64,000 nt of DNA from the NCBI GenBank assembly GCA_963766735.1, contig CAVYBU010000019.1, positions 65,999 through 129,998 of the forward strand. The letters are read 5' to 3'. The notes beneath the pieces were generated by a model. That model had not been told where the DNA came from. It did not search any database and was given only the letters and a program-made list of their open reading frames with translations. The stretch's first letter is position 1. Every line of letters begins with the position of its first letter. Below are positions 58,559 through 61,510 of this stretch, one piece after another. This stretch comes from an uncultured Chloroflexia bacterium. GTDB lineage: Bacteria > Chloroflexota > Limnocylindria > Limnocylindrales > CSP1-4. The position numbers were made by a program, and so were the translations under genes.

Positions 58559-59260
58559 GTGGAGGTGATCCCGGCGATCGACGTGACGAAGGGCCGCTCT
58601 CGGATCGTCTACTGGCCCGGCGCGTCAGCCGGGATCGGCACGCCCACGGACCGGCCGGACCGGATCGCGGAGCAGTTCGTCGCCCAGGGTGCGCGGATCA
58701 TTCACCTGGTGGACGTTGACGGTGCCCAGCGCGGGGCATCGGCCAACCTGGAGGCCGTCGGCGCCGTCGCCGCGCGCGTCGCCGTGCCGCTGCAGCTGGC
58801 CGGCGGCCTGGAGGAGGCCGACCACGTCCGCCTCGCCTTCGCGGCGGGGGCGACGCGGGTCGTGCTGTCGGCGGCGATCGCGGATCGCCCCCAGGCCCTG
58901 GCCGAGTGCCTGACCGTCGCCGGTGACTGGCTGGCCGTGGGCCTTGATCCCCGCCCGGACCGCATCGCCGGGTTCCCGTGGCGGCGGCCCGTTCCGCCAA
59001 CTTTCGATACGCTGGTGGAGGAGCTCGTCGCCCGGGGCGTCCGCCGGCTGGTGTTGAGCCACGGCGGTGGCGCGCCGGATCTCGACCTTCTCCGAACCCT
59101 CGTTCGTCGTCACGACGCCGACGTCCTGGTTGCCGGCGGCGCCACCGATCTCGCCGGCGTCGGCCGGCTTCGCGATGCCGGCGTGACCGGTCTCATCCTC
59201 GGGGAGGCGCTCCTCTCCGGCGCCATCGACTTCCCCAACGCCCTGGAGGCTGCCGCATGA
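58559..59260 (+). CDS. HisA/HisF-related TIM-barrel protein (divergent)
   Basis: IPAID, HLVDVDG, AGGL and GLILGEAL; lacks the TDISRDG segment. Confidence 0.75.
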   Translation: MEVIPAIDVTKGRSRIVYWPGASAGIGTPTDRPDRIAEQFVAQGARIIHLVDVDGAQRGASANLEAVGAVAARVAVPLQLAGGLEEADHVRLAFAAGATRVVLSAAIADRPQALAECLTVAGDWLAVGLDPRPDRIAGFPWRRPVPPTFDTLVEELVARGVRRLVLSHGGGAPDLDLLRTLVRRHDADVLVAGGATDLAGVGRLRDAGVTGLILGEALLSGAIDFPNALEAAA

Positions 59261-59985
59261 CCCTTCGCCGCTCCCTTGCCCTGGCCGTCGCCGCCCTCGC
59301 GGTCCCGATCGTGCTGGCCGCGTGCTCCTCGGGATCGAGCGGCGCAGCGACCATCCCGCCGATCCCCTCCGAGGCGCCCGCGACGCCCACCCCCGCGCCG
59401 ACGCACCCCGGCCCGAGCTACCCGCCCGGCTGCCCCACCGAACAGCCCGCGGCGCTGGGCGCAGACGACGTGCGCACGGTCACGATCACCACCGACAAGG
59501 GCGACATCGTCATGGAGATCAAGGGCGCGCTGTCGCCAATCGCCGCCGGCAACTTCGTCGAGCTCGCCTCCTGCGGTTACTACGACATGGTCGTGTTCCA
59601 CCGGCTCGTGCCGGGGTTCGTGATCCAGGGCGGCGACGGCATGTTCGGCCGCTCGCCGGATGTCATCCCGGACCTCGTGGGGTCGGGTGGGCCCAAGTAC
59701 ACGATCCAGGACGAGCCGGTCACCACGACCTACGGCCGCGGCACGGTGGCCATGGCCCGGACCCAGCAACCCAACTCAGTGGGCTCGCAGTTCTTCATCG
59801 TCACCGACGACGCGGCGGCCGCGGCGCTGGGCGATCCCCAGTACAACAACTACCAGATCATCGGGTCCGTGACCGCCGGCATGGACGTCGTGGACACCAT
59901 CGCGGCGATGCCGAACACCGGCCCCCCGAACAACGCCGCCATCGACCCCGTGCCGATGACCAAGGTCACCGTCACCACCCCGTAG
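59257..59985 (+). CDS. Cyclophilin-type peptidylprolyl isomerase, lipoprotein
   Basis: Lipobox LAAC, FHRLVPGFVIQGGD and GSQFFI; ATGA overlap with the upstream gene. Confidence 0.9.
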   Translation: MTLRRSLALAVAALAVPIVLAACSSGSSGAATIPPIPSEAPATPTPAPTHPGPSYPPGCPTEQPAALGADDVRTVTITTDKGDIVMEIKGALSPIAAGNFVELASCGYYDMVVFHRLVPGFVIQGGDGMFGRSPDVIPDLVGSGGPKYTIQDEPVTTTYGRGTVAMARTQQPNSVGSQFFIVTDDAAAAALGDPQYNNYQIIGSVTAGMDVVDTIAAMPNTGPPNNAAIDPVPMTKVTVTTP

Positions 59986-60016
59986 CCATGCCCCCAGCAC
60001 ATCGAGGAGAGCACCC

Positions 60017-60511
60017 ATGACCCGTGTCGTCATCGCCACCGAGGCCGGCGAGATCGAAGCCGACCTGTTCACCGAAGGCGCGCCCAAGGCGTCTGCCAAT
60101 TTCGTGAAGCTCGCCAAGGCCGGCTTCTACGACGACGTCATCTTCCACCGCGTTATCCCCGGCTTCATGATCCAGGGCGGTGACGGCGAGTTCGGCAAGA
60201 AGGCCACGCTCAACACCGGGCGCGTCGGCACCGGAGGCCCCGGCTACAAGTTCGATGACGAGCCCTTCACCGGCGACTACTACCGGGGCACCCTCGCGAT
60301 GGCCAACTCGGGCAAGAACACCAACGGCTCGCAGTTCTTCATCTGCCACGCCGACTACTCGGGCCGGCTGCCGAAGAGCTACACGATCTTCGGGATGGTC
60401 ACCAAGGGCCTCGATGTCGTAGACGCGATCGCGACGGCCCCGCGCAACAGCCGCGACCTGCCGGACGCACCGGTCGCGATGACCTCGATCACGGTCCTCG
60501 ACGAGGCGTAA
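60017..60511 (+). CDS. Cyclophilin-type peptidylprolyl isomerase, cytoplasmic
   Basis: FHRVIPGFMIQGGD and LAMANSGKNTNGSQFFI. Confidence 0.93.
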   Translation: MTRVVIATEAGEIEADLFTEGAPKASANFVKLAKAGFYDDVIFHRVIPGFMIQGGDGEFGKKATLNTGRVGTGGPGYKFDDEPFTGDYYRGTLAMANSGKNTNGSQFFICHADYSGRLPKSYTIFGMVTKGLDVVDAIATAPRNSRDLPDAPVAMTSITVLDEA

Positions 60512-60562
60512 TCCGCCCGTCAGGCAGACGATTCGGGCCAGTCGGGCCGACGGTTAAGGGAT

Positions 60563-60617
60563 TATTACCAAACTCCTCATCAAAACCCTTCCCAAATCCA
60601 CACCAGCCCGCTAGGAT
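60563..60617 (+). promoter_or_regulatory. Promoter with three imperfect 12-bp direct repeats upstream of a -10 hexamer
   Basis: TATTACCAAACT, CCTCATCAAAAC and CCTTCCCAAATC (CAAA at 60569, 60581, 60593); TAGGAT at 60612-60617. Confidence 0.45.
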
Positions 60618-60623
60618 ATGCAC

Positions 60624-60800
60624 GCTGCAAGTCAGCCAGCGCTGCCCCAGCATCAGGATCATGGGTAGGTAGGGTTAGGGTAGTCGGTTCAGCCGACGCG
60701 ATAGATGATCCTGGCGCGATGGCAAAAGGCCCGCCGCAAGGCGGACCGTTCACCGGGACAGCAACGAGGCGGCTCCTTCGGGAGCCGCCTCGTACGTTTC
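60624..60800 (+). ncRNA. Candidate structured non-coding RNA of about 170 nt, family unassigned
   Basis: Has its own -10 and terminator, nested helices, GCAA and TTCG tetraloops, and no credible ORF. Confidence 0.55.
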
Positions 60801-60801
60801 T
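60764..60801 (+). terminator. Intrinsic terminator of the candidate ncRNA
   Basis: Perfect 13-bp stem ACGAGGCGGCTCC-TTCG-GGAGCCGCCTCGT, then ACGTTTCT. Confidence 0.75.
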
Positions 60802-60902
60802 GCGGGGAACCTTGTTGAGGTGGCGCGGCGGTGCCAGGCCCGACGGCGGTCGGAGACGGGCTGCTATCCTTTCAGCCCGCGACGCCAGCCGTCGCGACTC
60901 GC

Positions 60903-60978
60903 GCGCCTGTAGCTCAGCGGATAGAGCGTCGGCCTCCGGAGCCGAAGGTCGCAGGTTCGAATCCTGTCGGGCGCGCCA
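60903..60978 (+). tRNA. tRNA-Arg (CCG)
   Basis: GCGCCTG TAGCTCAG...TCGGC-CTCCGGA-GCCGA...GGTTCGAATCC...CGGGCGC-G-CCA; extended -10 TGcTATCCT at 60862-60870. Confidence 0.97.
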
Positions 60979-61310
60979 TTGCAACCTTTTCGGGCAGCGC
61001 CAGCGCCAATCCGTGCGCGTAGGCCGCCGACGTGAGCCGGATCCCCACGATCTCGGGTCCCGCGACCGTGATCCGCTCGTAGATGGCGTGCATCAGGTCT
61101 GCCCTCTCCTTCGGTACGTCTGCCTGCTGGATTGACTCGGCCGAGCGCGCGGAGCCACTCGATCGCGCGCTGTGCCGGGACGCCGGTCTCCGATCCCTCG
61201 GCGATCGCGTCCCGCGCCTGACGGAGCGCCTTGAGCCGGGCGAGGTACGCGTCGTCGGCGAGGTCGCCTGCGGCGTGCTCGAGGGCGAGCTCGCGGATCC
61301 GCCGGTCCGG
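60979..61310 (-). pseudogene. C-terminal remnant of a probable large serine recombinase, reading into tRNA-Arg
   Basis: DRRIRELALEHAAGDLADDAYLARL, then after a frameshift near 61140 ERADLMHAIYERITV...KVAMARPTGFEP. This resembles the recombinase C-terminal coiled-coil region; no catalytic domain is present. Confidence 0.55.
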
Positions 61311-61510
61311 ACCGTCGTGGAGGCGGCCGGAGCCGCCTCGAGCGGGTGGTGAAGACCACGGTCTTCCTGGCCAGCGCAGATGACTTCGCAACGATGAATG
61401 CGCTGTTCGCGGAGTTCTTCCCGACTGCCCCGCCTGTCCGATCGACGCCGATTGTCGGTCTGCCCCGGGGTCTTCGGATCTCGATCGATGCCGTCGCCTA
61501 CATGGGCTGA
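61305..61510 (+). pseudogene. 5'-truncated RidA/YjgF family fragment (absent from the ORF track)
   Basis: Manual translation: VRTVVEAAGA, a 1-nt slip, then LERVVKTTVFLASADDFATMNALFAEFFPTAPPVRSTPIVGLPRGLRISIDAVAYMG* (TGA 61508-61510). Confidence 0.72.

What the first reader, a model, noticed from the sequence alone, without database searches (positions are those of the whole stretch)
60624..60800. Candidate novel structured ncRNA with a G-rich, telomere-like loop
Seen: a stand-alone unit between cyclophilin and tRNA-Arg, with its own -10 and a 13-bp terminator. Helix TCAGGATCAT (60653-60662) pairs with ATGATCCTGG (60705-60714) and extends through GC/GC and TGCC/GGCA. It encloses GGGTAGGTAGGGTTAGGGTAG (60663-60683) and the hairpin GTCGGTTCAGCCGAC. 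A CCGCC-GCAA-GGCGG hairpin follows, and 5' GCTG can close with CAGC (60759-60762). It lacks SRP, tmRNA and RNase P signatures, and the next gene has its own promoter, so a riboswitch is unlikely. Inference: a trans-acting RNA. Options are a divergent 6S/Ms1-like polymerase-binding RNA (size fits), a protein-titrating sRNA with repeated (A)GG(G)TA motifs, or a G-quadruplex-forming RNA.
Basis: partly seen in the sequence, partly recalled or inferred. Interest (0 to 1): 0.78.

Follow-up and report, generated by a model that had tools for sequence, protein, structure and literature searches.

The report
Conserved G-rich small RNA in Limnocylindria
This is a real, previously undescribed small structured RNA gene with an almost unchanging G-rich loop, kept as a single copy in most members of an uncultured group of soil and freshwater bacteria, and its job is still unknown.

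Summary

- **Conservation:** it is single-copy and was found in 141 of 151 genomes of its order. It was also found in 47 of 50 genomes of a second family, f4, outside that order. It was found in 0 of 49 genomes of family f3 and 0 of 136 other Chloroflexota. Named records place it in Candidatus Limnocylindria.
- **Structure:** helices covary. On a sequence-only alignment, 98.1% of cells pair and 13 of 34 pairs change on both sides. About 26 loop bases never change.
- **Synteny:** cyclophilin, then the sRNA, then (ancestrally) tRNA-Arg(CCG).
- **Known families:** no Rfam family matches. SRP RNA, RNase P RNA and tmRNA lie elsewhere in the genome.
- **Ideas that did not hold:** 6S/Ms1 membership fails. 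No canonical G-quadruplex is predicted. No long antisense partner exists. Hfq, RRM and Ro were not found in the class, and CsrA is rare.

Best reading: a new, trans-acting RNA family whose invariant loop is a binding platform for a conserved partner, probably a protein. The mechanism is inferred, not shown.

The parts
60017..60511 (+). Cyclophilin-type PPIase gene, the conserved upstream neighbour of the sRNA
   Evidence: PF00160, E 8.5e-43. By tblastn it lies directly upstream on the same strand in 154 of 173 distinct loci. The stricter count found a near-full-length hit ending less than 400 nt upstream in 70 f1-type, 28 f2-type and 32 f4-type loci.
60553..60569 (+). A+T-rich conserved block upstream of the -35 box (GTTAAG ... 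ATTATTACC); UP-element-like, inferred
   Evidence: Conserved within the genus. A similar A+T-rich block (GTAAAGGAATCTTAG) sits at the same place in family f4.
60589..60617 (+). Promoter: -35 TTCCCA (60589-60594), 17-nt spacer, -10 TAGGAT (60612-60617)
   Evidence: Read and conserved in the genus. Family f2 has TTGGAA-17-TATCCT at the equivalent place and f4 has TTGACC-18-TATCCT. It falls below the threshold of the generic scan. The transcription start near 60624 is inferred, not mapped.
60624..60636 (+). 5' hairpin GCUG-CAAGU-CAGC (present in f1 and f4, absent in f2)
   Evidence: MFE fold. 3 of its 4 pairs change on both sides in alignment A5, and 94.1% of cells pair.
60641..60648 (+). P1, 5' strand: GCUG plus CCC
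   Evidence: Pairs with CAGC 60759-62 and GGG 60755-57. Between families, C-G becomes U-A and U-A becomes U-G. Within f1 the first pair reads GC 47, AU 4, GU 4.
60650..60662 (+). P2, 5' strand (GC, then UCAGGAUCAU)
   Evidence: Pairs with 60705-60716. 6 of 11 pairs change on both sides in A5 and 7 of 11 in A3.
60663..60682 (+). J2/3: G-rich loop, GGGUAGG[U/C]-N(0-2)-GGGU[U/C/A]AGGGUA
   Evidence: Invariant in 35 of 35 BLAST-found relatives apart from the N position. Among hits found by the covariance model, only three positions vary.
60683..60697 (+). P3 hairpin (6 bp, with a variable loop: UCA, UUA or GAAA)
   Evidence: 5 of 6 pairs change on both sides across the class and 100% of cells pair.
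60698..60704 (+). J3/2: GCGAUAG (consensus G-Y-[G/C/U]-A-[U/A/C]-A-G)
60705..60716 (+). P2, 3' strand
60717..60754 (+). Junction UGGCA(A/G)AAG, variable hairpin P4 (60728-60747, loop GCAA) and junction CGUUCACC
   Evidence: The stem and loop of P4 differ between species while still pairing. f4 has no P4. UGGCAGAAG and CACCGGGACAG are nearly invariant in f1.
60755..60762 (+). P1, 3' strand: GGG plus CAGC
60764..60800 (+). Intrinsic terminator: 13-bp stem, UUCG loop, tail ACGUUUC
   Evidence: The stem covaries. An equivalent hairpin with a U-rich tail is present in f2 and f4.
60865..60978 (+). tRNA-Arg(CCG) gene (60903-60978) with its own -10 box TATCCT (60865-60870); the ancestral downstream neighbour
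   Evidence: ARAGORN and Rfam. tRNA-Arg(CCG) lies within 700 nt downstream in 58 of 124 distinct loci: 23 of 23 f2-type, 16 of 72 f1-type and 19 of 29 f4-type.

Best explanation
This is an independently transcribed, non-coding, structured small RNA gene. It runs about 170 nt from the predicted start near 60624 to the terminator near 60797, on the + strand. It represents a new RNA family confined to part of the class Candidatus Limnocylindria (Chloroflexota).

**Architecture:** the 5' and 3' parts pair (P1), leading into a covarying helix P2. P2 encloses a lopsided internal loop: 20-22 G-rich nucleotides on the 5' side, a short scaffold hairpin P3, and 7 nucleotides on the 3' side. Peripheral parts (the 5' hairpin and P4) come and go between families. 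About 26 loop nucleotides never change.

**Proposed mechanism (inferred):** the RNA acts in trans. Its invariant loop folds into a defined non-Watson-Crick surface that binds one conserved cellular partner, most likely a protein of the core machinery. The helices serve only to present that surface.

**My odds:**
- a real new ncRNA gene: about 0.9;
- acts in trans as a binding platform, rather than by cis-regulation or long antisense pairing: about 0.55;
- the partner is a protein: about 0.4.

**Shown:** the gene anatomy, conservation, structure and strand. **Inferred:** the binding role and the partner.
For: **Conservation**
- 40 of 41 genomes match by BLAST, G000 included, and a 60-nt core is shared with family f2.
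- The own genome holds one copy.
- The covariance model finds it in 141 of 151 genomes of the order and in 25 of 27 genera.
- In the class it is found in f1 42 of 44, f2 6 of 6 and f4 47 of 50 genomes.
- It persists in the f2 genomes of about 1.1 Mb. For Limnocylindraceae the literature gives a median intergenic length of 12 bp (PMC13212565, passage seen).

**Structure**
- RNAalifold predicts 39 pairs, 15 of them with compensatory changes.
- On 100 hits aligned to the model (72 distinct rows), 98.4% of cells pair and 12 of 17 pairs change on both sides. The covariation score is 0.506 against 0.192 for shuffles, with 0 of 500 shuffles reaching it, and at most 0.117 when the partners are slid.
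- On a MAFFT alignment not fitted to structure, with 55 sequences found by BLAST or the model, 98.1% of cells pair and 13 of 34 pairs change on both sides. The score is 0.177 against 0.102, and at most 0.056 when slid.

**Strand**
- Many G-U pairs, including an invariant U-G in P3 (55 of 55), would be A-C mismatches on the other strand.
- The promoter and the U-rich tail also point to the + strand.

**Not coding**
- The invariant loop carries a 0, 1 or 2-nt insert in the three families, which shifts any reading frame.

**Own transcription unit**
- -35 and -10 boxes sit at the same place in three diverged families, followed by a terminator.

**RNA libraries**
- 16 metatranscriptome runs hold part of the stretch.
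- Contigs from 4 runs of 4 studies cover 60636-60800. One run has sequencing adapter directly before 60637 and after 60755.

**Pattern of conservation**
- Helices covary while the loop is invariant, and the P3 loop is free to vary (UCA, UUA, GAAA).
- The neighbouring cyclophilin is only about 46-57% identical across these families.
Against: - No partner has been identified. RRM was found in 0 of 76 genomes, Hfq in 0 of 46, Ro/TROVE in 0 of 46 and CsrA in 3 of 46.
- The RNA is not strictly universal.
  - Two assemblies of 3 and 10 contigs, G142 and G167, keep the cyclophilin gene but have a different sequence after it, and the model finds no match anywhere in them.
  - Family f3 has none in 0 of 49 genomes. 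Four f3 genomes re-searched with laxer filters also gave none.
- The expression evidence is weak. The laid records are assembled contigs from RNA libraries that may contain DNA. Contigs from relatives can only align where the sequence is conserved. No 5' or 3' end has been mapped.
- Invariant purine-rich loops between covarying helices are also typical of ligand-binding aptamers and ribozymes, so a protein partner is only the most likely guess.
Confidence: 0.55

Rival explanations
1. It is a functional analogue of 6S or Ms1 RNA. The RNA would bind and sequester RNA polymerase in a lineage whose canonical 6S RNA cannot be found. The paired ends would mimic upstream DNA and the large loop an open promoter.
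For: - RF00013 has no match over its cut-off in the own genome; the best is 17.2 bits.
- It matches 0 of 91 genomes of the class. It does match 29 of 109 Chloroflexota genomes outside the class.
- The promoter looks like a stable-RNA promoter with an A+T-rich upstream block.
- The ends pair, there is a large internal loop, and the overall size is 150-180 nt.
- The classical sRNA-binding proteins are absent or rare, which leaves core machinery as the candidate partner.
Against: - No model match exists at the locus, even at E<=10.
- The loop is very lopsided, 20-22 nt against 7, and the hairpin beyond it is only 6 bp. 6S RNAs carry a long terminal arm.
- The UGAGCC/GGUUCA signature that flanks the bubble of Chloroflexota 6S RNAs is absent.
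- 6S is defined by structure with a loosely conserved bubble sequence. Here the loop sequence is invariant.
- Without the terminator, the f4 form is about 120 nt. The shortest 6S cited is about 160 nt and Ms1 is about 300 nt (PMC9130861, passages seen).
- Family f3 has neither RNA.
Confidence: 0.15
2. It is a ligand-sensing RNA. The invariant loop would form an aptamer pocket, possibly a non-canonical G-quadruplex-like core, for a small molecule or ion. Binding would either change the RNA's activity in trans or tune read-through of its terminator into tRNA-Arg(CCG).
For: - Covarying helices around invariant junction nucleotides, with variable peripheral hairpins, are the signature of an aptamer.
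- A terminator follows P1 after 1-5 nt.
- Four G tracts are present. The only length-variable position lies between tracts 2 and 3, as a quadruplex loop would allow.
- tRNA-Arg(CCG) follows in 58 of 124 loci.
Against: - ViennaRNA with its G-quadruplex model predicts no quadruplex, either in the isolated loop of all three families or in the whole RNA.
- The second G tract is always GG, so a regular three-layer quadruplex is impossible.
- The tRNA has its own -10 box in all three families.
- In most f1 genomes no tRNA follows (16 of 72 have one) and the downstream sequence varies.
- No conserved alternative pairing with the terminator was seen. The P4/terminator complementarity in the window is not kept in relatives.
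Confidence: 0.15
3. It is a base-pairing regulatory sRNA. The exposed G-rich loop would pair with C/U-rich stretches of one or more mRNAs.
For: - It is a stand-alone sRNA with a terminator and a long loop predicted to be unpaired.
- C-rich-loop sRNAs that pair with G-rich targets are known in other Hfq-less bacteria (recalled, not tested here).
Against: - An ungapped Watson-Crick plus G-U scan of the whole own genome, both strands, with the 23-nt loop found 1 site at 21 of 23 and 46 sites at 20 of 23. Shuffled loops gave 8.4 and 83.8 on average.
- Exact 10-mer complements are few and scattered.
- About 26 invariant nucleotides on both sides of a hairpin is far more than a seed needs.
- Hfq was found in 0 of 46 genomes.
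- Short seeds of 6-9 nt could not be tested without gene annotation.
Confidence: 0.12
4. It is not a gene of its own. It would be a 3'-UTR or processing element of the cyclophilin mRNA, or a DNA-level element such as a recombination site or G-rich DNA structure next to a tRNA gene.
For: - The cyclophilin gene lies directly upstream on the same strand in 154 of 173 loci.
- A few RNA-library contigs bridge the promoter region, for example 60546-60706 and 60569-60798.
- tRNA genes are common integration sites. A truncated RidA fragment lies just beyond the tRNA.
Against: - -35 and -10 boxes are conserved between the cyclophilin stop codon and the RNA, even in f2, where only about 91 nt separate the stop from the G-rich motif.
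- Compensatory changes with many G-U pairs indicate selection on an RNA of the + strand.
- The element is single-copy with no repeat or mobile-element signature.
- The motif has no match in viral contigs.
Confidence: 0.03

Closest known systems
6S RNA (Rfam RF00013)
   Same: - Both are stand-alone RNAs of about 150-200 nt.
- The ends pair and enclose a large internal loop.
- The promoter looks strong.
- The RNA is near-universal within its lineage, and that lineage has no detectable canonical 6S.
   Different: - There is no covariance-model match.
- The loop is 20-22 nt against 7, with only a 6-bp hairpin beyond it.
- The loop sequence is invariant.
- It lacks the UGAGCC/GGUUCA flanks of Chloroflexota 6S RNAs.
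Ms1 RNA of Actinobacteria
   Same: Ms1 is a lineage-restricted RNA that stands in where 6S is not found. It was recognised through conserved gene neighbourhood (PMC9130861, abstract and passages seen).
   Different: - Ms1 is about 300 nt, has a 6S-like bubble plus two end hairpins, and occurs in Actinobacteria with different neighbours.
- Nothing at this locus matched any Rfam family.
CsrB/RsmZ-type protein-titrating RNAs
   Same: Short G-rich motifs repeat in single-stranded RNA; here GGGUA-like units occur three times.
   Different: - CsrA was found in only 3 of 46 genomes of the class.
- The repeats sit in one internal loop rather than in many hairpin loops.
- Their number and order are fixed rather than variable.
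Orphan lineage-specific structured RNAs found by comparative genomics (for example Chloroflexi-1 RF01698, raiA motif RNA)
   Same: All are recognised by conservation plus covariation in intergenic DNA, have no known function, and are restricted to one lineage. Sources: PMC2864571 table rows seen; the raiA paper only as a search listing.
   Different: - None of those Rfam families matches this locus.
- The taxon differs. Chloroflexi-1 is listed for Chloroflexus aggregans only.
- The G-rich invariant loop is a different architecture.
Laboratory-selected G-quadruplex aptamers such as Spinach and Mango (recalled, not from any call)
   Same: A G-rich internal loop sits between two helices.
   Different: - No quadruplex is predicted here.
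- This is a natural RNA and no ligand is known.
- The resemblance is a lead only.

Membership tests
6S RNA (RF00013) | Match to the Rfam covariance model at or above the gathering score (46.4 bits) | tested here: not met
   No 6S match at the locus even at E<=10. The best match anywhere in the genome is 17.2 bits, on another contig.
6S RNA (RF00013) | Rod shape: closing stem, central bubble open on both strands, long terminal arm | tested here: not met
   A closing stem is present (P1 and P2). The bubble is 20-22 nt against 7, and the terminal hairpin is only 6 bp.
6S RNA (RF00013) | Conserved flanks of the bubble as seen in Chloroflexota 6S RNAs (UGAGCC ... GGUUCA) | tested here: not met
   Present in three Chloroflexota 6S RNAs. 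Absent from the window RNA.
6S RNA (RF00013) | Binds sigma-A holoenzyme and templates product RNAs | not testable with these tools
   Needs biochemistry.
Ms1 RNA | About 300 nt, 6S-like bubble plus two end hairpins, actinobacterial synteny | tested here: not met
   Here the RNA is about 170 nt, and about 150 nt in f4. It is in Chloroflexota and flanked by cyclophilin and tRNA-Arg. The Ms1 features come from PMC9130861 passages.
CsrA-sponge RNAs | The partner protein CsrA is present wherever the RNA is | tested here: not met
   PF02599 was found in 3 of 46 genomes of the class, all in f1. The RNA is found in 96 of 151.
Hfq-dependent base-pairing sRNAs | Hfq present | tested here: not met
   PF17209 was found in 0 of 46 genomes.
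Y RNA / Ro RNP | Ro (TROVE) protein present, usually next to the RNA | tested here: not met
   PF05731 was found in 0 of 46 genomes.
Riboswitch (cis-regulatory) | Lies in the 5' leader of a conserved set of regulated protein genes | tested here: not met
   Downstream is a tRNA with its own -10 box, or variable sequence.
Riboswitch (cis-regulatory) | Aptamer-like pattern: covarying helices around invariant junctions | tested here: met
RNA G-quadruplex | Four G tracts able to stack into at least two tetrads, with a fold predicted to be stable | tested here: inconclusive
   The tracts GGG, GG, GGG, GGG are present. ViennaRNA with its G-quadruplex model predicts no quadruplex. Irregular folds cannot be modelled here.
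SRP RNA / RNase P RNA / tmRNA | This locus is the genome's copy of that RNA | tested here: not met
   All three are found elsewhere in the genome at 74.2, 183.6 and 135.4 bits.

The most novel reading that the evidence does not exclude
The invariant G-rich loop and the short strand opposite it fold into an irregular, quadruplex-like core held between two helices. The RNA would then be a natural, stand-alone sensor or clamp for a small ligand or protein. That would make it the first bacterial housekeeping-type sRNA built like the laboratory-made G-quadruplex aptamers, retained even in 1.1-Mb streamlined genomes.
Probability: 0.1. Interest if true: 0.85.

Novelty: new variant of a known kind. 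Interest (0 to 1): 0.6.

Why it matters
Limnocylindria are abundant in soils and lakes, and every genome seen here is a metagenome-assembled genome (record titles). Nothing found in print concerns their RNA biology.

- **Selection:** a single-copy RNA with about 26 unchanging nucleotides survives in genomes whose median intergenic spacer is 12 bp. It must be under strong selection.
- **Context:** the class shows no detectable 6S RNA, Hfq, RRM or Ro proteins, and only rare CsrA. This RNA is therefore one of the few handles on post-transcriptional or transcriptional control in the lineage.
- **Practical use:** the covariance model and the cyclophilin / sRNA / tRNA-Arg synteny give a ready marker for the two lineages that carry it. 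The short, well-defined core (P2, loop, P3, about 65 nt) is an easy target for probing, ligand screens and pull-downs.

Tried and rejected
- **Generic scan:** the promoter and terminator scan found nothing in 59500-61500. Its thresholds are too strict for this promoter and tail.
- **Minus strand:** it folds even better (z -6.5). I rejected it because of the G-U pairs and the direction of the promoter and the tail.
- **Family f3:** the models found nothing. Upstream of tRNA-Arg(CCG) in three f3/f5 genomes lies a gene on the opposite strand, not the sRNA. No tRNA lies in the loci around the distant f3 cyclophilins.
- **Known partners and folds**
  - RRM, CsrA, Hfq and TROVE do not fit as partners.
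  - No canonical G-quadruplex is predicted.
  - No long antisense partner exists.
  - There is no rRNA complementarity or mimicry; blastn-short gave only matches of 13 nt or less, and the 16S 3' end is ordinary.
  - The motif has no match in viral contigs.
- **Mini-ORF AUG-GGU-AGG:** rejected. The AUG lies inside helix P2 and the frame is not kept between families.
- **Methods that failed**
  - Clustering of stop-to-stop ORFs gave high-GC artefact clusters.
  - My tRNA regular expression was too strict, so I replaced it with ARAGORN.
  - One tblastn query for the second cyclophilin was typed one base out of frame. I discard that result; the gene was confirmed.
- **Read laying:** no contig covers 60806-60873 between the terminator and the tRNA, and two runs show no cover upstream of about 60600. 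Contigs from relatives could not align in this unconserved spacer anyway.
- **Earlier notes of this scan:** nothing relevant.
Full report
**1. Observation**

- The 10-pair helix is 60653-60662 with 60705-60714.
- It encloses the G-rich stretch 60663-60683 and the hairpin 60683-60697.
- The CCGCC-GCAA-GGCGG hairpin lies at 60731-60744.
- GCTG (60641-60644) faces CAGC (60759-60762).
- A 13-bp terminator (60764-60793) has the tail ACGTTTC.
- A TAGGAT box sits at 60612-60617.
- The flanking genes are a cyclophilin (PF00160) and tRNA-Arg(CCG).

The + strand folds with z = -4.1, and 0 of 200 shuffles fold as well. The generic promoter and terminator scan reports nothing. I read the promoter as TTCCCA-17-TAGGAT, which scores 8 of 12 and falls below that scan's threshold.

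**2. Conservation and taxon**

- BLAST of 60560-60810 against 41 genomes matched 40. In the genus, 23 of 24 other genomes matched at 82-91% identity over about 220 nt.
- All 16 genomes of a second family (f2, about 1.1 Mb) shared a 60-nt core at 82-85%.
- The own genome has one copy.
- A covariance model of the core (R1) found the RNA in 141 of 151 genomes of the order: f1 100 of 108, f2 40 of 42, and 25 of 27 genera. Almost all hold one copy; two genomes have two matches.
- In the class it found f1 42 of 44, f2 6 of 6, f4 47 of 50, f3 0 of 49 and f5 0 of 1. Two of the 47 f4 matches are in genomes flagged unpublished (G251, G233). Without them the count is 45 of 48.
- A broader model (R2) found it in 13 of 151 genomes drawn from the phylum. 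All 13 belong to f1, f2 or f4, so 0 of 136 genomes from other Chloroflexota families matched.
- Five f3/f5 genomes re-searched with laxer filters gave nothing better than E = 5.8.
The 80 records listed are almost all titled Chloroflexota, Chloroflexia, or Candidatus Limnocylindria, Limnocylindrales, Limnocylindrus or Aquidulcis, and include the MAG 'CSP1-4'.
- The motif is absent from viral contigs.

The element therefore belongs to part of the class Limnocylindria. The window's family is probably the one called CSP1-4, and f2 is probably Limnocylindraceae. That mapping is my inference from the record titles.

**3. Structure and strand**

RNAalifold on 35 BLAST-found sequences from two families predicts these helices:
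- P1: GCUG with CAGC, plus CCC with GGG.
- P3: the inner hairpin.
- The terminator.

Of the 39 predicted pairs, 15 carry compensatory changes.

Two further counts support the fold.
- **Model-fitted alignment (A3).** On 100 hits (72 distinct rows), 98.4% of cells pair and 12 of 17 pairs change on both sides. The covariation score is 0.506 against 0.192 for shuffles, with 0 of 500 shuffles reaching it, and at most 0.117 for slid partners. Two caveats apply. This alignment is fitted to the model, and 56 of its 100 sources had been fetched by the exact motif.
- **Structure-blind alignment (A5).** I repeated the count on a MAFFT alignment of 55 f1 sequences found only by BLAST or the model. There, 98.1% of cells pair and 13 of 34 pairs change on both sides. 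The score is 0.177 against 0.102 (0 of 500), and at most 0.056 when slid.

G-U pairs are frequent, and one U-G pair in P3 is invariant in 55 of 55. On the minus strand these would be A-C mismatches. So the + strand is the RNA, even though the minus strand has the lower free energy.

**4. The invariant core**

- Between P2 and P3 lies CAUGGGUAGG[U/C], then 0-2 free nucleotides, then GGGU[U/C/A]AGGGUAG.
- After P3 comes G-Y-[G/C/U]-A-[U/A/C]-AGAUG.
- The low-scoring hits found by the model show that only those few positions vary.
- The P3 loop is free to vary (UCA, UUA, GAAA).
- P4 exists only in f1 and f2, and the 5' hairpin only in f1 and f4.
- The 0, 1 or 2-nt insert inside the invariant stretch rules out a conserved reading frame.
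- The neighbouring cyclophilin protein is only 57% (f2) and 46% (f4) identical to the window's (medians).

**5. Gene anatomy and neighbourhood**

- All three families have -35 and -10 boxes at the same distance from the RNA: TTCCCA-17-TAGGAT, TTGGAA-17-TATCCT and TTGACC-18-TATCCT. Each has an A+T-rich block upstream and a terminator hairpin with a U-containing tail.
- The cyclophilin gene lies directly upstream on the same strand in 154 of 173 distinct loci. Many of these loci came from the motif scan.
- tRNA-Arg(CCG) follows within 700 nt in 58 of 124 loci: 23 of 23 f2-type, 16 of 72 f1-type and 19 of 29 f4-type. The tRNA has its own -10 box in each family.
- The ancestral order is therefore cyclophilin, sRNA, tRNA-Arg(CCG).
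- For Limnocylindraceae a median intergenic length of 12 bp is reported (PMC13212565, passage seen). Keeping this locus there speaks for function.

**6. Not universal**

Five f1 genomes without a match were re-searched with laxer filters and again gave nothing.
- In three of them the cyclophilin gene was not found either, so the locus is probably unassembled.
- In G142 (3 contigs) and G167 (10 contigs) the cyclophilin gene is present but is followed by other sequence. The RNA has been lost or moved there.

**7. Expression**

- Sixteen metatranscriptome runs hold part of the stretch.
- Contigs from four runs of four studies cover 60636-60800.
- In one small run, adapter sequence directly abuts 60637 and 60755, and a 108-nt contig matches 60672-60755 without a difference.
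- This is a weak hint only. The records are contigs, DNA may be present in such libraries, and no strand or ends can be read from them.

**8. What it is not**

- No Rfam family matches the locus at E<=10.
- SRP RNA, RNase P RNA and tmRNA are found elsewhere in the genome.
- **6S RNA:**
  - The best match in the genome is 17.2 bits, at another place.
  - It matches 0 of 91 genomes of the class, but 29 of 109 Chloroflexota genomes outside it.
  - Those 6S RNAs have a UGAGCC/GGUUCA signature and a long terminal arm, both lacking here.
- **G-quadruplex:** ViennaRNA with its G-quadruplex model predicts none.
- **Antisense partner:** a whole-genome scan for sites complementary to the loop found fewer near-perfect sites than shuffled loops did. 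The rRNA operon is in the assembly and shows no meaningful similarity or complementarity.
- **Known RNA-binding proteins in the class:** RRM in 0 of 76 genomes, CsrA in 3 of 46, Hfq in 0 of 46 and TROVE in 0 of 46.

**9. Mechanism**

The evidence is covarying scaffolding helices, an invariant purine-rich lopsided loop, free peripheral elements, an independent strong-looking promoter and no cis target. This fits a trans-acting RNA whose loop is a folded binding surface.

I put a conserved protein partner first, at about 0.4. Classical sRNA-binding proteins are missing, which leaves core machinery as the candidate. Long invariant loops are also typical of RNP cores.

The rivals are:
- a 6S-like polymerase binder (0.15);
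- a ligand sensor, possibly with an irregular G-rich core (0.15);
- a seed-pairing sRNA (0.12);
- not a gene of its own (0.03).

None of these was tested directly.

**10. Novelty and literature**

- Searches found no paper combining Limnocylindria with small RNA.
- General searches on Limnocylindria, on structured RNAs or 6S in Chloroflexota, and on the GGGUUAGGG string in bacteria turned up no relevant description (listings only).
- The 2026 Limnocylindria genomics paper does not mention ncRNA in its main text (supplements not visible).
- The Chloroflexi-1 motif is listed for Chloroflexus aggregans only. As an Rfam family it did not match.

I therefore file this as a new RNA family of a known general kind, the lineage-specific structured sRNA, with an unusual core.

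Noticed in passing
window 59257-59985 and 60017-60511: Two cyclophilin-type PPIase genes sit in tandem. The first (PF00160, E 5.2e-35) has an N-terminal hydrophobic, lipoprotein-like leader and a Pro/Ala/Thr-rich linker. The second is a plain 164-aa cytoplasmic form. The second is the conserved neighbour of the sRNA.
   Followed up: partly
window 60980-61510: Directly beyond tRNA-Arg lies about 370 nt with no Pfam match. It is followed by a 54-aa ORF that matches only the C-terminal half (profile positions 67-120 of 121) of RidA/L-PSP. This looks like a truncated gene remnant, possibly a scar of an insertion or rearrangement at the tRNA.
   Followed up: no
own genome, contig C6 near 189582 and contig C10 near 4584 (minus strand): A near-identical stretch of about 65 nt occurs at two places. 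It contains an 11-nt complement to the sRNA loop. It is probably part of a repeated element, and the complementarity is at chance level.
   Followed up: no
window 60553-60569; same position in f4 loci such as L105: An A+T-rich block is conserved 20-40 nt upstream of the -35 box of the sRNA promoter, in otherwise G+C-rich DNA. It looks like an UP element or a regulator site.
   Followed up: partly
L122, L124, L186 (titled Steroidobacteraceae); L128, L175, L180 (titled Anaerolineaceae): Public MAG records with these taxonomic labels carry the exact Limnocylindria motif. L122 and L124 score like f4-type copies. The labels are probably wrong or the bins mixed.
   Followed up: no
G142 (L278) and G167 (L279): In two CSP1-4-type genomes the cyclophilin gene is followed by a convergent gene instead of the sRNA. 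In G167 the cyclophilin region itself matches in three frames with a TGA, which suggests a degraded gene or an error-prone assembly.
   Followed up: partly
class-wide: In the genomes sampled, the whole class shows no match to the Rfam 6S model and no Hfq, RRM or TROVE domain. Its RNA-based regulation must run on other parts.
   Followed up: partly
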